64,000 bases of DNA from Patescibacteria group bacterium UBA926 (GTDB lineage Bacteria; Patescibacteriota; Doudnabacteria; UBA920). How positions within the stretch are numbered: position 1 is the first letter of the stretch; the number at the start of each line of letters is the position of its first letter. Positions 9,391 through 62,975 of the stretch are shown one piece after another. Under the pieces are notes generated by a model. The model searched no databases. It was not told where the DNA came from and saw only the letters and a list, made by a program, of their open reading frames with translations. Location of the stretch: NCBI GenBank assembly GCA_002293685.1, contig DBDS01000004.1, positions 34,479 to 98,478 on the forward strand. Reading direction: 5' to 3'. A program made the position numbers and the translations under genes.

Positions 9391-9474
9391 GCCTATATTA
9401 TAGCCCGCCTAAGCGGTTAGTGCTAAGTGCTGAAATATCTATGCAAATTAAAAAACACCATAGAGGTGTTTTTC

Positions 9475-9860
9475 TGGTGGAGATGGCGGGAGTTAAACCC
9501 GCGTCCAAAACTAAGCAATCGAATCATTGGTCACAAGATTAGTCCGTTAAAATACCGACAGCCTCACAACGGACAACTAAGCAGTCGGGCGATATACTTA
9601 ATTTCGGTTGAATGATGTATATCAGACCATTCAACTATAGCTCCAAATAAACCAGCTGATCTACGGTCAGAGCGGACAGTAGGGCTGGGCGTTGCCTAAA
9701 GGTTAGGCGAACGCAGGTGCAAGTTGCTTGCTATTGAAAGCAGCAACGACCTTGTTCCATGCGTTTTCACGTATGATTGCTTGTAAGATTTACGAGCTTG
9801 CAAGCTGGCTCGTCTTGTATATAAAACGATTTTAAAGTCCTGTCAAAATCCGGCATCCCC
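9475..9860 (-). ncRNA. ssrA: transfer-messenger RNA (tmRNA, ssrA)
   Basis: The minus strand begins GGGGATGCCGGATTTTGAC and ends GGACGCGGGTTTAACTCCCGCCATCTCCACCA. The acceptor stem has a G3:U70 wobble pair. The candidate tag frame ...AWNKVVAAFNSKQLAPAFA ends with UAA inside a hairpin. smpB lies 2 kb away. Confidence 0.85.
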
Positions 9861-10034
9861 GACTAAATATTCCTATGATATTCACAAACCAATTGGTTCA
9901 TAAATATAACCTTTTGGCTAAGAAAATTTGGACGAACATCCCAGGTTACCCAGAAAAGGGTAGCATAATTGTACTGTATATATTGACTTTTGTCAAGATA
10001 TCGGCTAAGATTAGTATCCAAAAGGAGGAAATTA

Positions 10035-46023: not shown

Positions 46024-46111
<88 letters not shown>

Positions 46112-46550: not shown

Positions 46551-47708
46551 TTATTGAGGATATTGGCTTTCGGCTGGTTCAACTATGAAACCAGTAGTAG
46601 CTTGGCTTGGTTTTTGAACTGATGTATCTTCAGGTTCTGGGGTTACTGGTTCGGTTGGGGTGGTTGGTTGAGCTGGTGTTGTAGTTGTGGAAGTGGTAGC
46701 TCCTTGAACGCTCGCAGTTGTAGGTGCGATTGGGGTAGGCAATACCGCCAATGGGTCAAGTACAATTATCTTTTTCGCAATAAGGGAATTGTTTTCACGA
46801 GTTCCGATTACAGCAATTTTTCCGTTTAGACTATCCAGCTCGGTGATAGGCTCACCGTCCTGACTCATCATAATGGTCTCAGGATTGATTATAAAGGCAT
46901 TTTTTTCTACAGTGACTGTGGTTCTACTGCGATTACTAATAATTCCTGTGACAGAAATTTTGTTTGGAAGATCGAGCAAACTTTGTTCATTTACCGCGGC
47001 AATAAGTCTGGCTAAGTTCTTGTCAGTTTCTTTGATTGTGTCGAGAGCTTTAGCAAGTTTTTCACCATCTGGTAATTTCGCAGCACTCTCTATAACAGTT
47101 TTCTTTTCTTTATTTAAAGCAACTAAGTTATTTAATAAACTGGAATCATTTTGTGAAGCTTTCGTTGCAGCTAACTGAGAAGTTACTTCAAAAGTTTTTT
47201 CAGTTTGCTTTGCGAGAGCATCCAAAGCGATTGCTTCCTGGTCCGGGTTACTTAGTGCGATAACTAACTTAGTTTCCGAGAGTCGCTTCTTTGCTAATTC
47301 TAAGTGAATTTCTGCCTTCTTTTCGTTATCTAAAGCAAGTTTTAAGCGAAGTTGTTCCTTAGAGATTTTCACTCCGTATAGACGATCGCCAGGAAGGCTG
47401 TCTTCGGAAGCTTGAATTGTTCCGTACCCACCAACTAATAACATCGCTAGTGCCAAAGGGATAGTTGCAAGTTTGTAAGTTTGAAAAGTATTAACCAGCT
47501 TTTGCCAAACTCCGACTTTCTGAGCATATGCGTGACGCATGGTAGGGGAAGGAGCTTTACTAACCGGGATTGAGTTTAAAGTTTGTGCCAACTTTAACAT
47601 CTCCACCAATTCTTCAGATTGGAAGTGCTGAGCGATTGATTCAATACTTTCGCCTTGATTTAGTCTGGCAAGAGCTTGATCTAAGATGTCGTCTGAACTT
47701 AATTTCAT
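46551..47708 (-). CDS. putative anti-sigma factor (membrane-anchored)
   Basis: Its start lies 4 nt after the ECF sigma stop. One TM helix is followed by an extracytoplasmic Thr/Pro-rich tail. Confidence 0.5.
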   Translation of the reverse strand: MKLSSDDILDQALARLNQGESIESIAQHFQSEELVEMLKLAQTLNSIPVSKAPSPTMRHAYAQKVGVWQKLVNTFQTYKLATIPLALAMLLVGGYGTIQASEDSLPGDRLYGVKISKEQLRLKLALDNEKKAEIHLELAKKRLSETKLVIALSNPDQEAIALDALAKQTEKTFEVTSQLAATKASQNDSSLLNNLVALNKEKKTVIESAAKLPDGEKLAKALDTIKETDKNLARLIAAVNEQSLLDLPNKISVTGIISNRSRTTVTVEKNAFIINPETIMMSQDGEPITELDSLNGKIAVIGTRENNSLIAKKIIVLDPLAVLPTPIAPTTASVQGATTSTTTTPAQPTTPTEPVTPEPEDTSVQKPSQATTGFIVEPAESQYPQ

Positions 47709-47712
47709 TGAT

Positions 47713-48297
47713 TTATAATTTTCTGATGTTGTTGTCGAACAGTTCTTTAAGTTTACTGATAGCACGGTGTTGGATAACTCTGATCGCGCCTTCGGTCTTG
47801 TTTAAGATTTGAGCAATAGTTGAGTTGTCGAGTTCTTCGAGGAACTTCATTTTGATTACCGTTTGCTGTTCATCATTTAACTCTTTGAGAAGTTTAATTA
47901 AGATACTTTGTTCAATTTGTAGATTTATGATTTCTACAACATTAGTTTCGTATTCAAGGGTATTCTCTATTGCATCCAACGGAACCAATTGCTTTTTTTT
48001 GCGGTAATAATCAATTACTAGGTTTCTGGCTATTTGGAATAACCAACCTTCGAAAGCTTCAATCTTTTCTAAGTTTTTTAAACTATTGAAAGCTTTTATG
48101 AAAGTGTCTTCCGTGATGTCTTCAGCGGTTTCTCTATGAGAAACACGATAGTAAACAAAGCGATAAACTCTCATAAAGTAAGCCTCGTAAATATCCGAAA
48201 GAGCTTCTTGCTTACCAGCCTGGGCTTGTGTGATGAGTCTTGTGAGACTGCCAGCTGGCAAATCCGTCATATTACTGATGTTGGTTTGAGAGTTCAT
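47713..48297 (-). CDS. ECF-type RNA polymerase sigma-70 family factor
   Basis: Region 2 (YRFVYYRVSHRETAEDITEDTFIKAF) and region 4 HTH (LNDEQQTVIKMKFLEELDNSTIAQIL). Confidence 0.85.
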   Translation of the reverse strand: MNSQTNISNMTDLPAGSLTRLITQAQAGKQEALSDIYEAYFMRVYRFVYYRVSHRETAEDITEDTFIKAFNSLKNLEKIEAFEGWLFQIARNLVIDYYRKKKQLVPLDAIENTLEYETNVVEIINLQIEQSILIKLLKELNDEQQTVIKMKFLEELDNSTIAQILNKTEGAIRVIQHRAISKLKELFDNNIRKL

Positions 48298-48505: not shown

Positions 48506-48598
<93 letters not shown>

Positions 48599-49760: not shown

Positions 49761-52301
49761 TTATGCAGGAACAGGAGCAGGTTTTTTATTATCGGATTTG
49801 AATGTAACCTTGTCTGCTTCAAGACCTATAGTTATAGTCGTACCTTCTTTTAAGCCGTCACTGATAATCTGTTCAGCCAAAGGGTCGCTGATGTAATCCT
49901 GAATGTTCTTACGAATATAGCGAGCTCCTTGCAGAGGATCGTAACTCTTTTCGGTTATAAATTTAATAACCGCTGGAGTAATCTTTAAGGTGGTTTTTTG
50001 TGGTTCTAGTCGTGATTGAAGATCTGCGAATTGAAGTTGCGTGATCTTTTTTAGTTCCGCAGCTGCAAGCGGTCGGAAGATAATTACTTTGTCGATACGG
50101 TTTAAGAATTCCGGTCGCAAATCCTTTTTTAGTTTTTCTACCAAACCTTCTTTGATGCGGTCGTATTCTTTATCGAGCTTAACTTTTTCCGAATCGTTTT
50201 CGTCTCTATCGGTGAATCCCATTTTCACGCTTGCCGCATTAAGTTCTTGCATACCTAAGTTGGAAGTCATGATGATTACCGTGTTGGCAAAGTTTACTTT
50301 TTTACCTTGCGCGTCTGTTAGTTGACCATCTTCTAAAATCTGCAGAAGAATGTTGAATACTTCAGGATGAGCTTTTTCGATCTCATCGAACAGAACAACT
50401 GAATACGGTTTGCGGCGAACAGCTTCGGTAAGACGACCACCTTCTTCGTAGCCAACATATCCTGCAGGAGCACCGATTAATCTAGCAACATTATGACGTT
50501 CCATAAACTCCGACATATCTACGCGAATTAAAGCATCGATGTCTTCGAATACTTCTTGAGCAATCATTTTAGCTGTTTCTGTTTTACCAACTCCTGTTGG
50601 TCCAAGGAACATGAAAGAACCGATTGGACGCTTTGGATCTGCTAAGCCTGCGCGAGAACGGCGAATAGTCTTTGCGATTTCTGAAAGTGCTTCGTCTTGA
50701 CCGACGATTCTGGTCTTCAGAGTTTTTTCTAGATTGGTAAGTTTGCCAATTTCGCTTTGTGCTAATTTTTTGAGAGGGATTTTGGTCATTAAAGAAACAG
50801 TGTGTGCGATATCTTCAGCTGTTAGGGAATAAACAGGACCAGTATCTTCCTTCGCCATGGATTCTAATTCTTTTTTCTGAGCGAGCAACCTTTCTTCTTG
50901 GCTGCGCAAATGCAAAGCAGTGGTGAAATCCTGAGACATCACAGCTTTAGTTTTTTCTTCTTCTAATTGTTCGAGCTCTAATTCGACTTTGCGCTTTGTT
51001 TTCGCAAGTTTAGAGTTGCTGTGAATACTTCGAAGAAAAGCAGCAGTTTCATCTACTAAATCGACAGCTTTGTCGGGAAGGAAGTGGTCTTGAATATAAC
51101 GGTCGGATAGATCTACAGCAGCTTGAATGGCCTCATCAGTAATCTGAACGTTGTGATGTTTTTCGTAATTAGGGCGAATACCTTTAAGAATGGCAACGGA
51201 TTCTTCTTTGCTTGGTTCTTCAACTAAAATTGGTTGAAAACGTCGTTCGAGGGCCGCGTCGTGTTCGATGTGCTTTTTGTATTCTGCTAAAGTTGTCGCG
51301 CCGATTGTGCTTAACTCACCGCGCGCTAACGCTGGTTTGAAAATATTTGCAGCATCAAGACTTCCAGTGGTTGCTCCCGCACCCATCATGGTGTGAAGTT
51401 CATCGATGAACAAGATAATATTTGGATTAGCTTTCACTTCGTCGATGATTTGCTTTAAGCGGTTTTCAAATTCACCTCGGAACATCGAACCTGCTACTAC
51501 CAAAGCTAAATCTAAAGATAAAATCTTTTTATCTAATAGAGTGTCTGGTACTTCGCGGTTAGCGATAGCAAGAGCGAGACCTTCAACGATAGCAGTTTTA
51601 CCGACACCTGCTTCGCCAATTAACACAGGATTATTTTTGGTACGACGGCCTAGAATGCTGACTAGCCGTTCAATTTCTTTTTTACGGCCAATAACAGGAT
51701 CGATGCCGCCTTGCGCAGCTTTCTTAGTTAAGTCAGTTGTAAAGTATTCCAATGGATTTCCTTTTTGGGCGTTTGGGTTAGGGGATTGATGAGAGTGATT
51801 TTCTGGTCCCATGTTTCCTGGTTGATCTTGAGGCATGTCTGGGAATTTAGAAATGTTTTCGAATACGGTAACAAGATTATGTTCAAGTTCACCGATGTCG
51901 ACCCCAATCTTAGAAAGAATGACGCGAGCTTTATTGTGTTCGGTTGTAATTAGTCCGTATAGAAAATGTTCGGTGCCGATAAACTGATAACCGTACTGGC
52001 TGGCAATAATGGCAGATTTTTCGATAGCGGTTTTTAAGTTTGCGGATAGAATTGGTTTCCAAACAGCGACTTCGTTGTTTTGATTAACCATGGTTAATTC
52101 AGCTTTCACGAGTTCGGAGGAAATTTTTGCTTTATTTAATATTTCGCCTGCAAAGCTGGATTTCTCGGCAACAACGCCAAACAATAAATGCTCCGTCCCG
52201 ATGTGATCGTGGTGGAGTTCTTCAGAAACCATTTGTGCTGCGATGAGAGCGTTTTTTGCTCTACTCGACAGGCGTTCTAATATAAAGGCGAAGTTGTTCA
52301 T
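49761..52301 (-). CDS. clpC: Clp/Hsp100 ATPase, ClpC-like (two Clp-N repeats, two AAA+ modules, short M-domain)
   Basis: 846-aa protein with GEAGVGKTAIVEGLA, GPTGVGKTETAK and sensor motifs. Confidence 0.85.
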   Translation of the reverse strand: MNNFAFILERLSSRAKNALIAAQMVSEELHHDHIGTEHLLFGVVAEKSSFAGEILNKAKISSELVKAELTMVNQNNEVAVWKPILSANLKTAIEKSAIIASQYGYQFIGTEHFLYGLITTEHNKARVILSKIGVDIGELEHNLVTVFENISKFPDMPQDQPGNMGPENHSHQSPNPNAQKGNPLEYFTTDLTKKAAQGGIDPVIGRKKEIERLVSILGRRTKNNPVLIGEAGVGKTAIVEGLALAIANREVPDTLLDKKILSLDLALVVAGSMFRGEFENRLKQIIDEVKANPNIILFIDELHTMMGAGATTGSLDAANIFKPALARGELSTIGATTLAEYKKHIEHDAALERRFQPILVEEPSKEESVAILKGIRPNYEKHHNVQITDEAIQAAVDLSDRYIQDHFLPDKAVDLVDETAAFLRSIHSNSKLAKTKRKVELELEQLEEEKTKAVMSQDFTTALHLRSQEERLLAQKKELESMAKEDTGPVYSLTAEDIAHTVSLMTKIPLKKLAQSEIGKLTNLEKTLKTRIVGQDEALSEIAKTIRRSRAGLADPKRPIGSFMFLGPTGVGKTETAKMIAQEVFEDIDALIRVDMSEFMERHNVARLIGAPAGYVGYEEGGRLTEAVRRKPYSVVLFDEIEKAHPEVFNILLQILEDGQLTDAQGKKVNFANTVIIMTSNLGMQELNAASVKMGFTDRDENDSEKVKLDKEYDRIKEGLVEKLKKDLRPEFLNRIDKVIIFRPLAAAELKKITQLQFADLQSRLEPQKTTLKITPAVIKFITEKSYDPLQGARYIRKNIQDYISDPLAEQIISDGLKEGTTITIGLEADKVTFKSDNKKPAPVPA

Positions 52302-52495
52302 TTAGTGACTTTCTAGACCGCCATCTGGCAGTCTGGAGCAAGTCCAGACTTGAGATGGCTTAGACCAATTTCTTTGTCGCCAGCTCCACTCCTTGCTCAG
52401 CGTACCTTTAGTACGCTTCGCTCGGTGCTCGCTGGCTTCTCGAACTTGGTCAATCTAGGAAGCCACTCAATTGGATTGCTATTGCTGTGTATTAT

Positions 52496-52522
52496 TTAGC
52501 ACTCTCAAAGTTAGACTGCTAA
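52496..52522. promoter_or_regulatory. CIRCE-like inverted repeat TTAGCACTC-N9-GACTGCTAA (HrcA operator candidate)
   Basis: Matches the consensus TTAGCACTC-N9-GAGTGCTAA with one mismatch. It lies ~195 bp upstream of clpC and ~110 bp upstream of the divergent recX-like gene. Confidence 0.55.
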
Positions 52523-52631
52523 TTATTTTATATCGGATTTATGAGTGAATGTCAACTCTATATATAACTACCGATATCTATTATAATTGTAACACGCATC
52601 GAAATTTTGTTATCTATTATTTCTCAAAGTT

Positions 52632-53144
52632 ATGTTTAAGAAAGCTCGACCACTGAAAGATCCTTCCGATTACGACCACGGCTATCAATATGCCTTATTC
52701 TTGCTCAATTTAAGCATGCGGACTGTTGGCGAAGTAAGAGACAAAATGACTAGTCGCGGATACACTTCTACTGTAATAAACGAAGTTATAAACAATCTGT
52801 TACAAGAAAAATACTTGAACGACTCAAATTATGCCGAAGTTTTTATAAATAGTATGAAAAACTATAAAACTTGGGGTCGGTTCATGATGAAAAAGAAGAT
52901 GTATGAGAAAAAATTACCGAAAGAATTAATTGACGAAAGCTTAAATGAATTTTTAAGTACCAAAGAAGAGAAGGAAATTGCTATGAGGTATCTATCTTCC
53001 ATGTCATCCTCGGTCGAGCGAAGCGAGAACCGGGGATCCATTGAATGGATTAAATCCCTGCCTTACGACGAAAAACAAAAACTAATGAGAAAGTTATTAT
53101 CACGCGGGTTTGGGATGGACATAGTAACAAAACTAATAAAATAA
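52632..53144 (+). CDS. recX: RecX-family regulatory protein with short in-frame GC-rich insert
   Basis: 170-aa ORF with a three-helical-repeat pattern (YALFLLNLSMRTVGEVRDKM...). Confidence 0.6.
   Translation: MFKKARPLKDPSDYDHGYQYALFLLNLSMRTVGEVRDKMTSRGYTSTVINEVINNLLQEKYLNDSNYAEVFINSMKNYKTWGRFMMKKKMYEKKLPKELIDESLNEFLSTKEEKEIAMRYLSSMSSSVERSENRGSIEWIKSLPYDEKQKLMRKLLSRGFGMDIVTKLIK
53002..53039. repeat. truncated copy of the rsmA-type GC-rich element inside recX (TGTCATCCTCGGTCGAGCGAAGCGAGAACCGGGGATCC)
   Basis: ~85% identical to 26021-26055. It is translated in the same frame (ERSENRGS). Confidence 0.85.
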
Positions 53145-54147: not shown

Positions 54148-55053
54148 TTATTTATCCATCCCTCTAAGGCGCTTGATACGTTCTTCTATTGGTGGGTGAG
54201 TGTTGAATAATCCTGCAAACCAACTTTGTCCGTCGCCTTCGTGATCTTTGAGCGGATTGGAAATATATAAGTGAGCAGTTGCTTTATTGGCAGTTTCCAG
54301 TGGTTCATGATCGGCTGCAATTTTTTCTAAAGCAGAAGCTAAACCTTCAGGGTAACGAGTCATCAATGCGCCGGTTGCATCGGCAAGATACTCGCGTTGT
54401 CTGGAGACAGCTAACTGAATTAACATTCCAACTATTGGTGAAAGAATTGCTAAGCCAATTCCAATAAGCAGGAATACTCCGTTATTCCCACCGCCTTCAC
54501 TATTCTTTCTATTGCCACCAAAAAATGACATTCTTAACATCCAATCGGCGAGAAGTGTAATGATTCCAACTAAGACAACCACTAAAGCCATGAAGCGGAT
54601 ATCGTAGTTGCCGATATGTGAAAGTTCGTGAGCGAGAACACCTTCGAGTTCGGTTTTATCTAGTTTTTGAAGTAAACCTGTAGTTACAGCAATGACGGCA
54701 TTGTCGGGATTACGACCGGTTGCGAAAGCATTTAAGGCTGAGTCTTCTATTATATAGACACGTGGCATCGGGAGACCTGCAGCAATTGAAAGATTTTCAA
54801 CAATTCTATAGAGTTCAGGATTAGCATTCAAATCAATTTGGGTTGCTCCAGACATTGAAAGTGCAATTTGATCGGAGAAAAAATATGAAATAATAGCTGA
54901 TACAGAACTAAACACAACTGCTAGCAGTAAAATTTCTGGTGCTCCGTACGCTTGCGAGAATACAAAACCAAGCCCGATGATTACGAGAAGGAATACCATT
55001 ATGAGCAAAACCGAATAGGTTTTATTTTTACTAATTTGGGTGTATGTAAGCAT
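54148..55053 (-). CDS. htpX: M48-family zinc metalloprotease HtpX
   Basis: HELSH motif inside HAHELSHIGN, with TM helices flanking. Confidence 0.85.
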   Translation of the reverse strand: MLTYTQISKNKTYSVLLIMVFLLVIIGLGFVFSQAYGAPEILLLAVVFSSVSAIISYFFSDQIALSMSGATQIDLNANPELYRIVENLSIAAGLPMPRVYIIEDSALNAFATGRNPDNAVIAVTTGLLQKLDKTELEGVLAHELSHIGNYDIRFMALVVVLVGIITLLADWMLRMSFFGGNRKNSEGGGNNGVFLLIGIGLAILSPIVGMLIQLAVSRQREYLADATGALMTRYPEGLASALEKIAADHEPLETANKATAHLYISNPLKDHEGDGQSWFAGLFNTHPPIEERIKRLRGMDK

Positions 55054-55575: not shown

Positions 55576-56124
55576 TTAGAACTTTACTTCAACTGGTTGC
55601 TGCTCTGGCCCATTATCATCAATATCGAAGAATGCCCGCTTAGTGAAACCGAGCATCTGAGCAAATAAGTTAGTCGGGAACACTTCAATTTTAGTGTTGA
55701 AGTCACGAACATTACCATTATAGAAACGACGTGCGGCCTGAATCTTGTTTTCTGTATCCGTTAAATCATTTTGCAATTGCAAAAAGTTTTGGTTGGACTT
55801 TAAGTCTGGGTAGTTTTCAGCAACAGCAAACAAACTTTTCAAAGTTCCTGAAAGCATGTTTTCATCTTGCTGATGTTCTTGCACAGTCTGTGCGCCCATG
55901 GCTCGAGTACGAGCCTCAGTGACGCGTTCCAAAACACCAGATTCTTGTGCCGCGAAACCTTTAACAGTGTTTACAAGGTTTGGGATTAAGTCATAGCGAC
56001 GTTTAAGTTGAACCTCAATGTCTGCCCATGCTTCTTCCACACGATTGCGAGAACGAATTAAAGAGTTGTATACACCAACACCTATAATAAGTACCGCTAC
56101 GATAATTATTACAAAAATTAACAT
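55576..56124 (-). CDS. lemA: LemA family protein
   Basis: N-terminal TM helix and the conserved LemA core (YNSLIRSRNRVEEAWADIEVQLKRRYDLIPNLV). Confidence 0.85.
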   Translation of the reverse strand: MLIFVIIIVAVLIIGVGVYNSLIRSRNRVEEAWADIEVQLKRRYDLIPNLVNTVKGFAAQESGVLERVTEARTRAMGAQTVQEHQQDENMLSGTLKSLFAVAENYPDLKSNQNFLQLQNDLTDTENKIQAARRFYNGNVRDFNTKIEVFPTNLFAQMLGFTKRAFFDIDDNGPEQQPVEVKF

Positions 56125-61814: not shown

Positions 61815-62975
61815 TCACCTTAGGAGCTTTTTGGCAAGGGTGATTAACTCGTCTGGTGAATCGGACCAATGAATATCTTTATTCCGTTTCCACCAAGTTA
61901 GTTGACGTTTGGCGTATTGTCTAATGGATATCACTGACAGTTCCTGCATTTGTTTGGCAGTAATTTTATTCTGCAAAAACTGAGCTGTATATTTATATTC
62001 TAATCCGAAGCTTTCAAATCTTTTCCAAGATACACCATTTTTGTGAAGCGAACTTACTTCATCGATCATACCGCGCTTTAACCAAGACTTCATTCGTTTA
62101 CTGATTTTACCTTCTAATACTTCCATGGATGGGTTTATTCCTAACCAAAGTGTCGACCACCCCGTCTTCGCCTTCGGCGAATCCACCCCTCCTTGAAAAG
62201 GAGGGGAGAGCAAAGGCACAGGTTTGCCAGTTGATTTAACAATTTCAATTGCTCGTATCAGACGGTGAGGATTTTTTTCATCAATAGTTTTTGCACGTTC
62301 CGGGTCTAGCTTCATAAGCATCTTAAACATCTCAGTAGTGCTGAGTTTAGATAATTTTGCTCGGAGTTTCAAATCAGGTTTGACTTTTGGAAATTGTTGA
62401 TTGAATGCAACTGAATCAATCCAGTGCATAGTGCCGCCGCAGAGGATTGGTAGCTTACCGCGTTTTAAAATATCCGAAATTATTTTATGTGCCTTTCGCT
62501 GAAATTTCTCTGCGGAATATTGTAGCTTTGGATTAGCTTCATCAATTAAGTAGTGGGGAATTGATTTGTAAATAAAGACTTTTTTGGAAATAGATCCTTC
62601 GACTCGCTTCGCTCGCTCAGGATGACGTGGAGTAGATCCTTCGACTCGCTTCGCTCGCTCAGGATGACGTGGAGTAGATCCTTCGACTCGCTTCGCTCGT
62701 CCGTGAATACTAGATGGGATAGCAGTATCCCCGGCGAATGCCGGGGTCTGTAATGTAGATCCCGGATAGCCCTGCGGGCTTCCGGGATGACTGGAAAATG
62801 GAACTGTCATCCATTTTCCAGTCACTTTCCCGCTTCCAATATCTAGCCCACGATAAATTTGTCGGCTGTCTGCCGAAATAATTTCACCATTAAATTTCTT
62901 GGCTAATTTAACAGCCAATTCACTTTTTCCACTAGCTGTTGGACCGACAACAATTACGAGCTTTGGTTTGTTCAT
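61815..62975 (-). CDS. miaA: tRNA dimethylallyltransferase MiaA carrying two in-frame GC-rich inserts (~85 extra codons)
   Basis: P-loop VIVVGPTASGKSELAVKLA and ISADSRQIYRGLDIGSGK, then a long insert before the conserved SIPHYLID. It is 386 aa versus ~300 aa for typical MiaA. Confidence 0.9.
   Translation of the reverse strand: MNKPKLVIVVGPTASGKSELAVKLAKKFNGEIISADSRQIYRGLDIGSGKVTGKWMTVPFSSHPGSPQGYPGSTLQTPAFAGDTAIPSSIHGRAKRVEGSTPRHPERAKRVEGSTPRHPERAKRVEGSISKKVFIYKSIPHYLIDEANPKLQYSAEKFQRKAHKIISDILKRGKLPILCGGTMHWIDSVAFNQQFPKVKPDLKLRAKLSKLSTTEMFKMLMKLDPERAKTIDEKNPHRLIRAIEIVKSTGKPVPLLSPPFQGGVDSPKAKTGWSTLWLGINPSMEVLEGKISKRMKSWLKRGMIDEVSSLHKNGVSWKRFESFGLEYKYTAQFLQNKITAKQMQELSVISIRQYAKRQLTWWKRNKDIHWSDSPDELITLAKKLLR
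62155..62215. repeat. in-frame CCCCTCCTTGAAAAGGAGGGG hairpin element in miaA (homolog of the gatA insert)
   Basis: Its reverse complement CCCCTCCTTTTCAAGGAGGGGTGG...GACGGGGTGG aligns with 59037-59090. It encodes LSPPFQGGVDSPKAKTG. Confidence 0.85.
62591..62823. repeat. complex GC-rich insert in miaA: 42-bp tandem repeat x2.4, a homolog of intergenic E9, and a GACTGGAAAATGG...CCATTTTCCAGTC hairpin
   Basis: TAGATCCTTCGACTCGCTTCGCTCGCTCAGGATGACGTGGAG is repeated head to tail (62591-62700). The next segment, 62717-62790, is ~80% identical to 41284-41344. Confidence 0.9.

What the first reader, a model, noticed from the sequence alone, without database searches (positions are those of the whole stretch)
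52496..52522. CIRCE-like operator in the divergent clpC / recX intergenic region
Seen in sequence: TTAGCACTC-TCAAAGTTA-GACTGCTAA matches the HrcA operator consensus (TTAGCACTC-N9-GAGTGCTAA) at 17 of 18 positions.

Established knowledge: CIRCE normally controls groESL and dnaK. Control of a Clp ATPase gene by HrcA is less common.

No hrcA gene is in this window.
Basis: partly seen in the sequence, partly recalled or inferred. Interest (0 to 1): 0.5.

Follow-up and report, generated by a model that had tools for sequence, protein, structure and literature searches.

The report
HrcA heat-shock operator on clpC promoter
A real, evolutionarily conserved copy of the classic bacterial heat-shock operator (CIRCE) sits on the promoter of the protein-unfolding ATPase gene clpC in an uncultured ultra-small (Patescibacteria) bacterium; it is a known kind of switch on a less usual target, so it is sound but fairly ordinary.

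Summary
TTAGCACTC-TCAAAGTTA-GACTGCTAA lies at 52496-52522, matches CIRCE at 17 of 18 arm positions, and is the only such site in the window.

Read towards clpC it follows a near-consensus promoter: TTGACA, 17 nt, TATAAA, 4 nt, CIRCE. The operator therefore covers the predicted transcription start of clpC (49761-52301, minus strand), not of recX.

All four related Patescibacteria species with upstream sequence available and 72-91% identical ClpC keep a 17/18 CIRCE on the clpC promoter. Arms are 92% identical, spacers 42%, flanks 35%. Two more distant relatives carry one ahead of a nusA-clpC operon.

A second 17/18 CIRCE lies on the same contig, 14.5 kb before the window, on the promoter of an hsp20 gene.

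I did not find hrcA, groESL or dnaK in the roughly 20% of the genome I could reach, so the repressor itself remains inferred.

HrcA control of Clp ATPases (clpB, clpL) and small heat-shock proteins is already known in Mollicutes and lactobacilli. This is a new member of a known kind, of modest interest.

The unusual 194-nt gap between operator and start codon is a 169-nt palindromic repeat element inserted in this species.

The parts
52496..52522 (.). CIRCE-type inverted repeat, the predicted HrcA operator. On the + strand it reads TTAGCACTC-N9-GACTGCTAA; in the clpC direction it reads TTAGCAGTC-TAACTTTGA-GAGTGCTAA.
   Evidence: It is 17/18 to consensus and unique in the window, with 0.02 expected by chance. 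The same site is conserved upstream of clpC in L011, L013, L015, L016 and L224.
52550..52555 (-). -35 hexamer TTGACA of the predicted clpC promoter.
   Evidence: Read directly from the minus-strand sequence. The identical arrangement is present in L011 and L224. The promoter scanner did not list it because it requires T at the last -10 position.
52527..52532 (-). -10 hexamer TATAAA, 17 nt after the -35 and 4 nt before the CIRCE. The predicted transcription start falls in the first arm of the CIRCE.
   Evidence: Read directly from the sequence. The same hexamer and spacing occur in L011.
52302..52470 (-). 169-nt GC-rich palindromic repeat element inserted in the clpC 5' leader between operator and start codon. 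It is part of the transcription unit but not of the operator.
   Evidence: It is absent from the sister species L011, where the CIRCE is 23 nt from the ATG. The leader folds at -94 kcal/mol, z = -8. Other copies exist in the same genome and in relatives. 13 of 29 pairs show compensatory changes.
49761..52301 (-). clpC (846 aa), the gene predicted to be under CIRCE control.
   Evidence: Clp_N plus two AAA+ modules plus D2-small. The best PDB matches are B. subtilis and S. aureus ClpC over the full length, E = 5e-227, whereas ClpB matches only in two pieces. An MGF loop aligns to the VGF ClpP-docking loop. NCBI names it ClpC.
52632..53144 (+). recX, the divergent neighbour. Its likely -10 (TATAAT at 52582-52587, + strand) lies 60 nt beyond the CIRCE, so it is probably not the regulated gene.
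   Evidence: RecX three-helix domains are present. The promoter geometry is read.

Best explanation
The inverted repeat is a working CIRCE operator for the heat-shock repressor HrcA, built into the sigma-70-type promoter of clpC. The steps below are marked as shown or inferred.

**Shown:** the promoter is TTGACA-17-TATAAA. The CIRCE starts 4 nt after the -10, so it covers the predicted transcription start.

**Inferred from the established B. subtilis model:**
- At normal temperature an HrcA dimer, kept active by GroEL/GroES, binds the repeat and blocks RNA polymerase.
- When unfolded proteins titrate GroE, HrcA loses activity and clpC is transcribed.

**Shown:** the mRNA then begins with the CIRCE hairpin. 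In this species it carries a 169-nt highly structured repeat element before the ATG.

**Shown:** the same repressor site also sits on an hsp20 promoter on the same contig. In this reduced Patescibacteria genome the HrcA regulon therefore appears to include the Clp unfoldase and a small heat-shock protein. In Firmicutes clpC is under CtsR instead.
For: - **Match and uniqueness.** 17/18 to consensus, the only such site in 64 kb, 0.02 expected.
- **Position.** A perfect -35 with 17-nt spacing to a 5/6 -10 lies immediately upstream in the clpC direction.
- **Phylogenetic footprint.** L011 (91% ClpC identity), L013 (76%), L015 (74%) and L016 (72%) each carry a 17/18 CIRCE 23-147 nt before the clpC ATG. 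In each it overlaps -35, spacer, -10 or the start site. Mean pairwise identity is 0.92 for arms, 0.42 for the spacer and 0.35 for flanks. No other site with up to 3 mismatches occurs in those 13.6-22.6-kb loci.
- **More distant relatives.** L024 (18/18) and L035 (16/18) carry a CIRCE ahead of a nusA-clpC operon.
- **Second site in the same genome.** L227:3818-3844 reads TTAGCACTC-TATAGTGTA-GAGTGATAA between a TTGACA and the ATG of an HSP20 gene. It is on the contig that is 100% identical to the window.
- **No CtsR box** near clpC.
- **Literature precedents.**
  - HrcA controls clpB and lon in Mollicutes, and functional CIRCEs there carry no more than 2 mutations (PMC5138195).
  - L. gasseri clpL is HrcA-controlled and L. 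plantarum hsp3 is predicted to be (PMC6503756).
  - A natural groESL CIRCE carries the same C-to-G change, TTAGCAGTT (PMC3192767).
Against: - No hrcA gene was found. It is absent from the window, from about 100 kb of contiguous sequence of this strain, and from the roughly 170 kb in total (about 20%) seen of the 851-kb genome of a closely related strain (97-98% DNA identity over most of the shared region) (and the Pfam lists). The rest of the genome could not be reached.
- No groESL or dnaK operon was seen, so the canonical CIRCE targets are unchecked.
- Less close relatives (L017-L023, L025, L037) have no CIRCE upstream of clpC, so the link is clade-specific.
- The hsp20 site is missing from the close strain JALHPQ01.
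- The promoter is predicted from sequence only. There are no expression or binding data.
Confidence: 0.85

Rival explanations
1. The CIRCE acts on the divergent recX promoter, or on both promoters, and not only on clpC.
For: The element is palindromic and lies 110 nt from the recX ATG. The recX<>clpC arrangement is kept in relatives. In L016 the CIRCE is only about 30 nt from the recX start codon.
Against: In the window the best recX -10 (TATAAT, 52582-52587) is 60 nt away from the CIRCE on the far side. The operator would therefore sit at about -65 to -95 of recX, which is not a repressing position. The clpC promoter abuts it. In L024 and L035 the CIRCE travels with nusA-clpC and without recX. 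recX is not a heat-shock gene.
Confidence: 0.1
2. The site is a relic. HrcA has been lost from this reduced genome and the repeat no longer regulates anything.
For: hrcA was not found in the roughly 20% of the genome examined. CIRCE decay is documented in Spiroplasma (PMC5138195).
Against: Arms are 92% conserved against 35-42% for spacer and flanks across five species. The site has also moved relative to the -35 and -10 while staying intact, which indicates ongoing selection. A second intact site sits at hsp20. Decayed CIRCEs carry 3-4 mutations, whereas these carry one.
Confidence: 0.04
3. It is a chance palindrome, or part of the neighbouring repeat element, or a terminator hairpin.
For: The region is AT-rich and carries a large palindromic repeat right next to it.
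Against: Chance expectation is 0.02 even at up to 3 mismatches. L011 has the CIRCE without the repeat element, and other copies of the element have no CIRCE. No U-tract or terminator-like site is present in 52200-52750. No gene ends there.
Confidence: 0.01

Closest known systems
CIRCE/HrcA operators of the Bacillus subtilis dnaK and groESL operons (class I heat-shock genes)
   Same: The same 9-N9-9 inverted repeat, here 17/18. The same placement directly downstream of, or overlapping, a housekeeping-sigma promoter, so that the transcript starts at the repeat. Presumably the same GroE-titration logic.
   Different: The target is clpC, which in B. subtilis is a class III gene under CtsR. No groESL or dnaK copy and no hrcA were seen here. 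The host is an uncultured Patescibacteria (Doudnabacteria-like) organism.
HrcA regulon of Mollicutes (dnaK, clpB, lon; PMC5138195)
   Same: A reduced genome in which HrcA is one of very few regulators and its regulon extends to an Hsp100 ATPase or protease. Functional sites carry no more than 2 mutations.
   Different: The Mollicute target is ClpB, a disaggregase with no ClpP docking. Here it is ClpC, with an MGF ClpP-docking loop and a clpP gene in the genome. There is one CIRCE copy per promoter, not two.
HrcA-controlled clpL of Lactobacillus gasseri and hsp3 (small HSP) of L. plantarum (cited in PMC6503756, PMC3192767)
   Same: A Clp-family ATPase and a small heat-shock protein under CIRCE/HrcA, the same two kinds of target found here (clpC and hsp20).
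   Different: A different Clp paralogue. Those organisms also have CtsR, whereas no CtsR box is found here.
CtsR control of the clpC operon in Firmicutes
   Same: The same regulated gene, and the same logic of a heat-labile repressor on a housekeeping promoter.
   Different: A different repressor and operator (heptad direct repeat RGTCAAA-NAN-RGTCAAA). No such site lies in the clpC-recX intergenic region, and clpC is not preceded by ctsR-mcsA-mcsB.

Membership tests
CIRCE / HrcA operator | 9-bp inverted repeat with a 9-bp spacer matching TTAGCACTC-N9-GAGTGCTAA, with functional sites usually carrying no more than 2 mismatches | tested here: met
   17/18, correct spacing, unique in the window. 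The mismatch threshold is from PMC5138195.
CIRCE / HrcA operator | Overlaps or directly follows the housekeeping-sigma promoter of a chaperone or protease gene | tested here: met
   TTGACA-17-TATAAA-4 nt-CIRCE, pointing at clpC. In relatives it overlaps the -35, spacer or -10. The promoter is predicted, not mapped.
CIRCE / HrcA operator | Conserved at orthologous promoters, with arms under selection and the spacer free to vary | tested here: met
   Four other species plus one close strain. Identity is 0.92 for arms, 0.42 for the spacer and 0.35 for flanks.
CIRCE / HrcA operator | Further CIRCE copies at other heat-shock genes of the same genome (normally groESL and dnaK) | tested here: inconclusive
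   A second 17/18 CIRCE lies on the hsp20 promoter of the same contig. groESL and dnaK were not in the roughly 170 kb that could be read, so the canonical targets are unchecked.
CIRCE / HrcA operator | An hrcA gene in the same genome | tested here: inconclusive
   Not found by tblastn or HMM, or in the Pfam lists, for the window, its flanks and four other regions, about 20% of the genome.
CIRCE / HrcA operator | HrcA binding and heat- or GroE-dependent derepression | not testable with these tools
   This needs EMSA or ChIP and heat-shock transcriptomics.
ClpC (class I Hsp100 that docks to ClpP) | Clp_N domain, two AAA+ modules, a short middle domain (not the long ClpB coiled coil), and an (I/V/M)GF ClpP-docking loop | tested here: met
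   Pfam architecture. A full-length single-stretch match to B. subtilis ClpC, while ClpB matches split at the M-domain. MGF aligns to VGF. clpP is present in the genome.
CtsR regulon | CtsR heptad direct repeat at the clpC promoter | tested here: not met
   No match with up to 3 mismatches lies in 52300-52650. The window has fewer matches than chance would give.

The most novel reading that the evidence does not exclude
In this Patescibacteria clade HrcA has taken over the job that CtsR does in Firmicutes, governing the proteolytic branch (ClpC) and a small heat-shock protein. In this species the clpC mRNA additionally carries a 169-nt member of a previously undescribed, covarying palindromic repeat family between operator and start codon. 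That repeat pairs with the bases just upstream of the AUG and could add a post-transcriptional layer to heat-shock control, through processing, stability or temperature-dependent opening.
Probability: 0.12. Interest if true: 0.5.

Novelty: new member of a known kind. Interest (0 to 1): 0.25.

Why it matters
It gives a concrete, testable piece of gene regulation in the Candidate Phyla Radiation, a group for which I found no paper discussing HrcA or CIRCE.

It suggests that these very small genomes use one repressor, HrcA, to drive the Clp unfoldase and a small heat-shock protein, much as Mollicutes do with clpB and lon.

It is not surprising to a specialist. The operator, its mode of action and the idea of Clp genes in HrcA regulons are all established.

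Tried and rejected
- **Rfam.** A search of the window and of the intergenic region found no RNA family at the site or in the leader.
- **hrcA in the window and fetched loci.** tblastn with B. subtilis HrcA and an HrcA HMM found nothing.
- **A Patescibacteria HrcA to use as a closer query.**
  - A CIRCE scan and an HrcA scan of IMG/VR gave only Bifidobacterium-type hrcA next to prophages.
- The big protein search with B. subtilis HrcA listed only Bacillaceae.
- **Walking the genome.** They produced the hsp20 CIRCE but no hrcA, groESL or dnaK.
- **The single metagenome scan.** I used it on the repeat element and it returned one locus. That locus showed the true copy next to nusA and exposed L007-L009 as chimeric joins.
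- **CtsR box.** Searched for and not found near clpC.
- **ClpB instead of ClpC.** Considered and rejected.
- **Internal promoter or terminator in the leader element.** Neither was found.
- **Literature.** Searches for HrcA in Patescibacteria, Saccharibacteria or CPR found nothing relevant.

Full report
**Observation.** Positions 52496-52522 read TTAGCACTC TCAAAGTTA GACTGCTAA. This is the CIRCE consensus TTAGCACTC-N9-GAGTGCTAA with one change, a C for G at the third base of the right arm. A pattern search allowing 3 mismatches finds only this site in the 64-kb window, and shuffles give 0.02 expected. The next-best sites have 4-5 mismatches. The consensus itself is as quoted in PMC545781.

**Genes.**
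- The ORF 49761-52301 (-) has Clp_N, two AAA+ modules and the D2-small domain.
- It matches B. subtilis and S. aureus ClpC over its whole length (E = 5e-227), while ClpB structures match only in two pieces split at the middle domain.
- Its MGF tripeptide aligns with the VGF ClpP-docking loop of B. subtilis ClpC.
- NCBI calls the identical protein ClpC of a 'Patescibacteria group bacterium'.
- clpP is present elsewhere in the genome.
- 52632-53144 (+) is RecX.

The window is 100% identical to JGI contig Ga0119928_1000004, 155.7 kb. A closely related strain (97-98% DNA identity over most of the shared region; a 6-kb stretch is 94%) has an 851,616-bp contig, GCA_022842405.1.

**Which gene does the operator serve?** Read on the minus strand, the region is TTGACA (52555-52550), 17 nt, TATAAA (52532-52527), ATAA, then the CIRCE (52522-52496). 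The operator therefore covers the predicted start site of a near-consensus promoter that points at clpC. The promoter scanner missed this pair only because it demands a T at the last -10 position. The most plausible recX -10 (TATAAT, 52582-52587, + strand) lies 60 nt beyond the CIRCE, so the repeat would sit far upstream of the recX start. No CtsR box is present near clpC.

**Relatives.** A genome-collection scan with ClpC returned 80 loci.
- All four relatives with 72-91% ClpC identity that have upstream sequence carry a 17/18 CIRCE 23-147 nt before the clpC ATG. These are L011, L013, L015 and L016.
- The two others in that identity range, L012 and L014, end at the gene.
- Across the five species, mean pairwise identity is 0.92 for arms, 0.42 for the spacer and 0.35 for the 20-nt flanks.
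- The site has shifted relative to the promoter hexamers. It lies after the -10 in the window and L011, between -35 and -10 in L015, and with the -35 inside its spacer in L016. This is the pattern of a selected protein-binding site, not of recent common descent.
- Two loci labelled Saccharibacteria (L024, 18/18; L035, 16/18) have a CIRCE ahead of a nusA-clpC operon.
- Other Patescibacteria loci (L017-L023, L025, L037) and all non-Patescibacteria loci have none.

**Other sites in the same genome.** By looking up proteins at the edges of known sequence I read about 100 kb of contiguous sequence of this strain. In total I read about 170 kb (about 20%) of the genome of the close strain.
- One more CIRCE turned up: L227:3818-3844, TTAGCACTC-TATAGTGTA-GAGTGATAA (17/18).
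- It starts 2 nt after a TTGACA and ends 31 nt before the ATG of an HSP20-family gene.
- L227 overlaps the window's first 3,002 nt at 100% identity, so this site is 14.5 kb before window position 1 on the same contig.
- The close strain lacks this hsp20 cassette.

**What I could not show.** No hrcA, groESL or dnaK was seen in any sequence I could reach (and the Pfam lists of the look-ups).
- Attempts to obtain a Patescibacteria HrcA as a closer query failed.
- The presence of the repressor is therefore inferred from two intact, promoter-embedded operators and from the footprint across species.
- I found no paper on HrcA in this phylum.

**Mechanism.** The mechanism is inferred from the B. subtilis model, which is established knowledge. 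HrcA, kept active by GroE, binds the repeat and blocks initiation. Proteotoxic stress titrates GroE, HrcA falls off, and clpC (and hsp20) are transcribed.

**Comparison with what is known.**
- HrcA regulons always include groESL and often dnaK (PMC545781).
- Extensions to Hsp100 or protease genes are documented. Examples are clpB and lon in Mollicutes, where functional CIRCEs carry no more than 2 mutations (PMC5138195), and clpL in L. gasseri.
- A small HSP (hsp3) is predicted to be controlled by HrcA alone in L. plantarum (PMC6503756).
- The S. thermophilus groESL CIRCE is reported as TTAGCAGTT-N9-GAGTGCTAA, which carries the same C-to-G change seen here among its two left-arm differences from consensus (PMC3192767).
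- What is particular here is that the target is clpC, a CtsR-controlled gene in Firmicutes, and that the lineage is Patescibacteria.

This makes it a new member of a known kind.

**The long leader.** The CIRCE is 194 nt from the ATG here but 23 nt in L011.
- The difference is a 169-nt GC-rich element (52302-52470) with imperfect terminal inverted repeats. The leader folds at -94 kcal/mol, z = -8.
- A covariance model built from five copies finds seven copies in the roughly 170 kb of this species. They lie upstream of clpC, nusA, rpsD, frr, nrdA, an rmlA-like gene and trmD. Copies also occur at other places in L011, L015 and L016.
- 13 of 29 base pairs show compensatory changes.
- Five of the seven copies are antisense to their flanking genes, which fits a mobile palindromic repeat (MITE/REP-like) better than a cis-regulatory RNA.
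- No Rfam family matches it.
- The element explains three contigs (L007-L009) in which clpC appears joined to other neighbours. These are chimeric assemblies at the repeat.
- The scanner finds one weak promoter-like match (9/12) inside the repeat and no terminator-like site; neither resembles the near-consensus promoter at the CIRCE.

**Verdict.**
- Confidence that this is a functional HrcA operator for clpC is about 0.85. The main gap is the unseen hrcA gene.
- Interest is modest, at 0.25.

Noticed in passing
window 52302-52470 (-). Other copies at L228:11881-11994, L228:2608-2723, L091:12543-12657, L230:2868-2982, L227:12975-13090, L231:7031-7148. In relatives at L011:8039-8156, L015:12431-12546, L016:4806-4931.: A family of roughly 115-170-nt GC-rich palindromic repeat elements with a conserved core (AAGTTCGAG..., GACAAAGAAATT) and strong covariation (13 of 29 pairs compensatory). 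All copies are intergenic and in either orientation. There is about one per 25-30 kb in this small genome, and copies sit at different places in related species. No Rfam match. It looks like a MITE/REP-type element, and one copy sits in the clpC leader.
   Followed up: partly
L227:3818-3844 and L227:3876-4289 (window coordinates about -14473 to -14002, same contig, outside the window): A second CIRCE (17/18) embedded in the promoter of an HSP20-family gene. The whole hsp20 cassette is absent at this position in the close strain GCA_022842405.1.
   Followed up: yes
L007, L008, L009 (contigs from JGI 3300005678 and 3300005680, and NCBI GCA_003446815.1): These contigs carry the identical clpC joined to other upstream neighbours (rpsD-rpoA, or nusA-clpP). 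The junctions fall inside the repeat element, and two of them contain runs of N. They are chimeric assemblies at the repeat, not rearranged strains.
   Followed up: yes
L017:~130-215 and L018:~9900-10000: Relatives with 64% ClpC identity have no CIRCE. They share a different conserved promoter-proximal motif upstream of clpC, TTGAC(A/T)..TCTGGTATA(A/C)TAT(T/A)AGTATAGTAT. This may be another operator.
   Followed up: no
L024:8536-8562 and L035:8515-8541: In two loci labelled Saccharibacteria the CIRCE lies ahead of a nusA-clpC operon. In L024 a -35 TTGACA sits inside the CIRCE spacer and a perfect TATAAT follows 18 nt later. A transcription factor gene (nusA) would then be heat-shock regulated.
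   Followed up: partly
window 62591-62699: A perfect 42-nt tandem repeat (2.6 copies, 100% identity) inside the miaA-like ORF 61815-62975 (-). It is in frame (14 codons per unit) and shares an 11-nt string with the repeat element.
   Followed up: no
L013:~9760-9900: A long inverted repeat (GGGTTTGGGGGCATCAGTA...TACTGATACCCCAAACCC, arms about 130 nt apart) lies just upstream of the clpC promoter and CIRCE of a Doudnabacteria MAG. It may be another palindromic insertion.
   Followed up: no
window 54148-55053 (-), 55576-56124 (-), 47713-48297 (-), 46551-47765 (-): Other stress-type genes cluster around clpC. HtpX and LemA lie on one side, and an ECF sigma factor with a DUF5667 protein on the other. 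None has a CIRCE.
   Followed up: partly
window 9475-9860 (-), 46024-46111 (-), 48506-48598 (-): A tmRNA gene and two tRNA-Ser genes (anticodons TGA and GCT). A 4-mismatch CIRCE-like string at 9400-9426 next to the tmRNA gene looks like chance.
   Followed up: no
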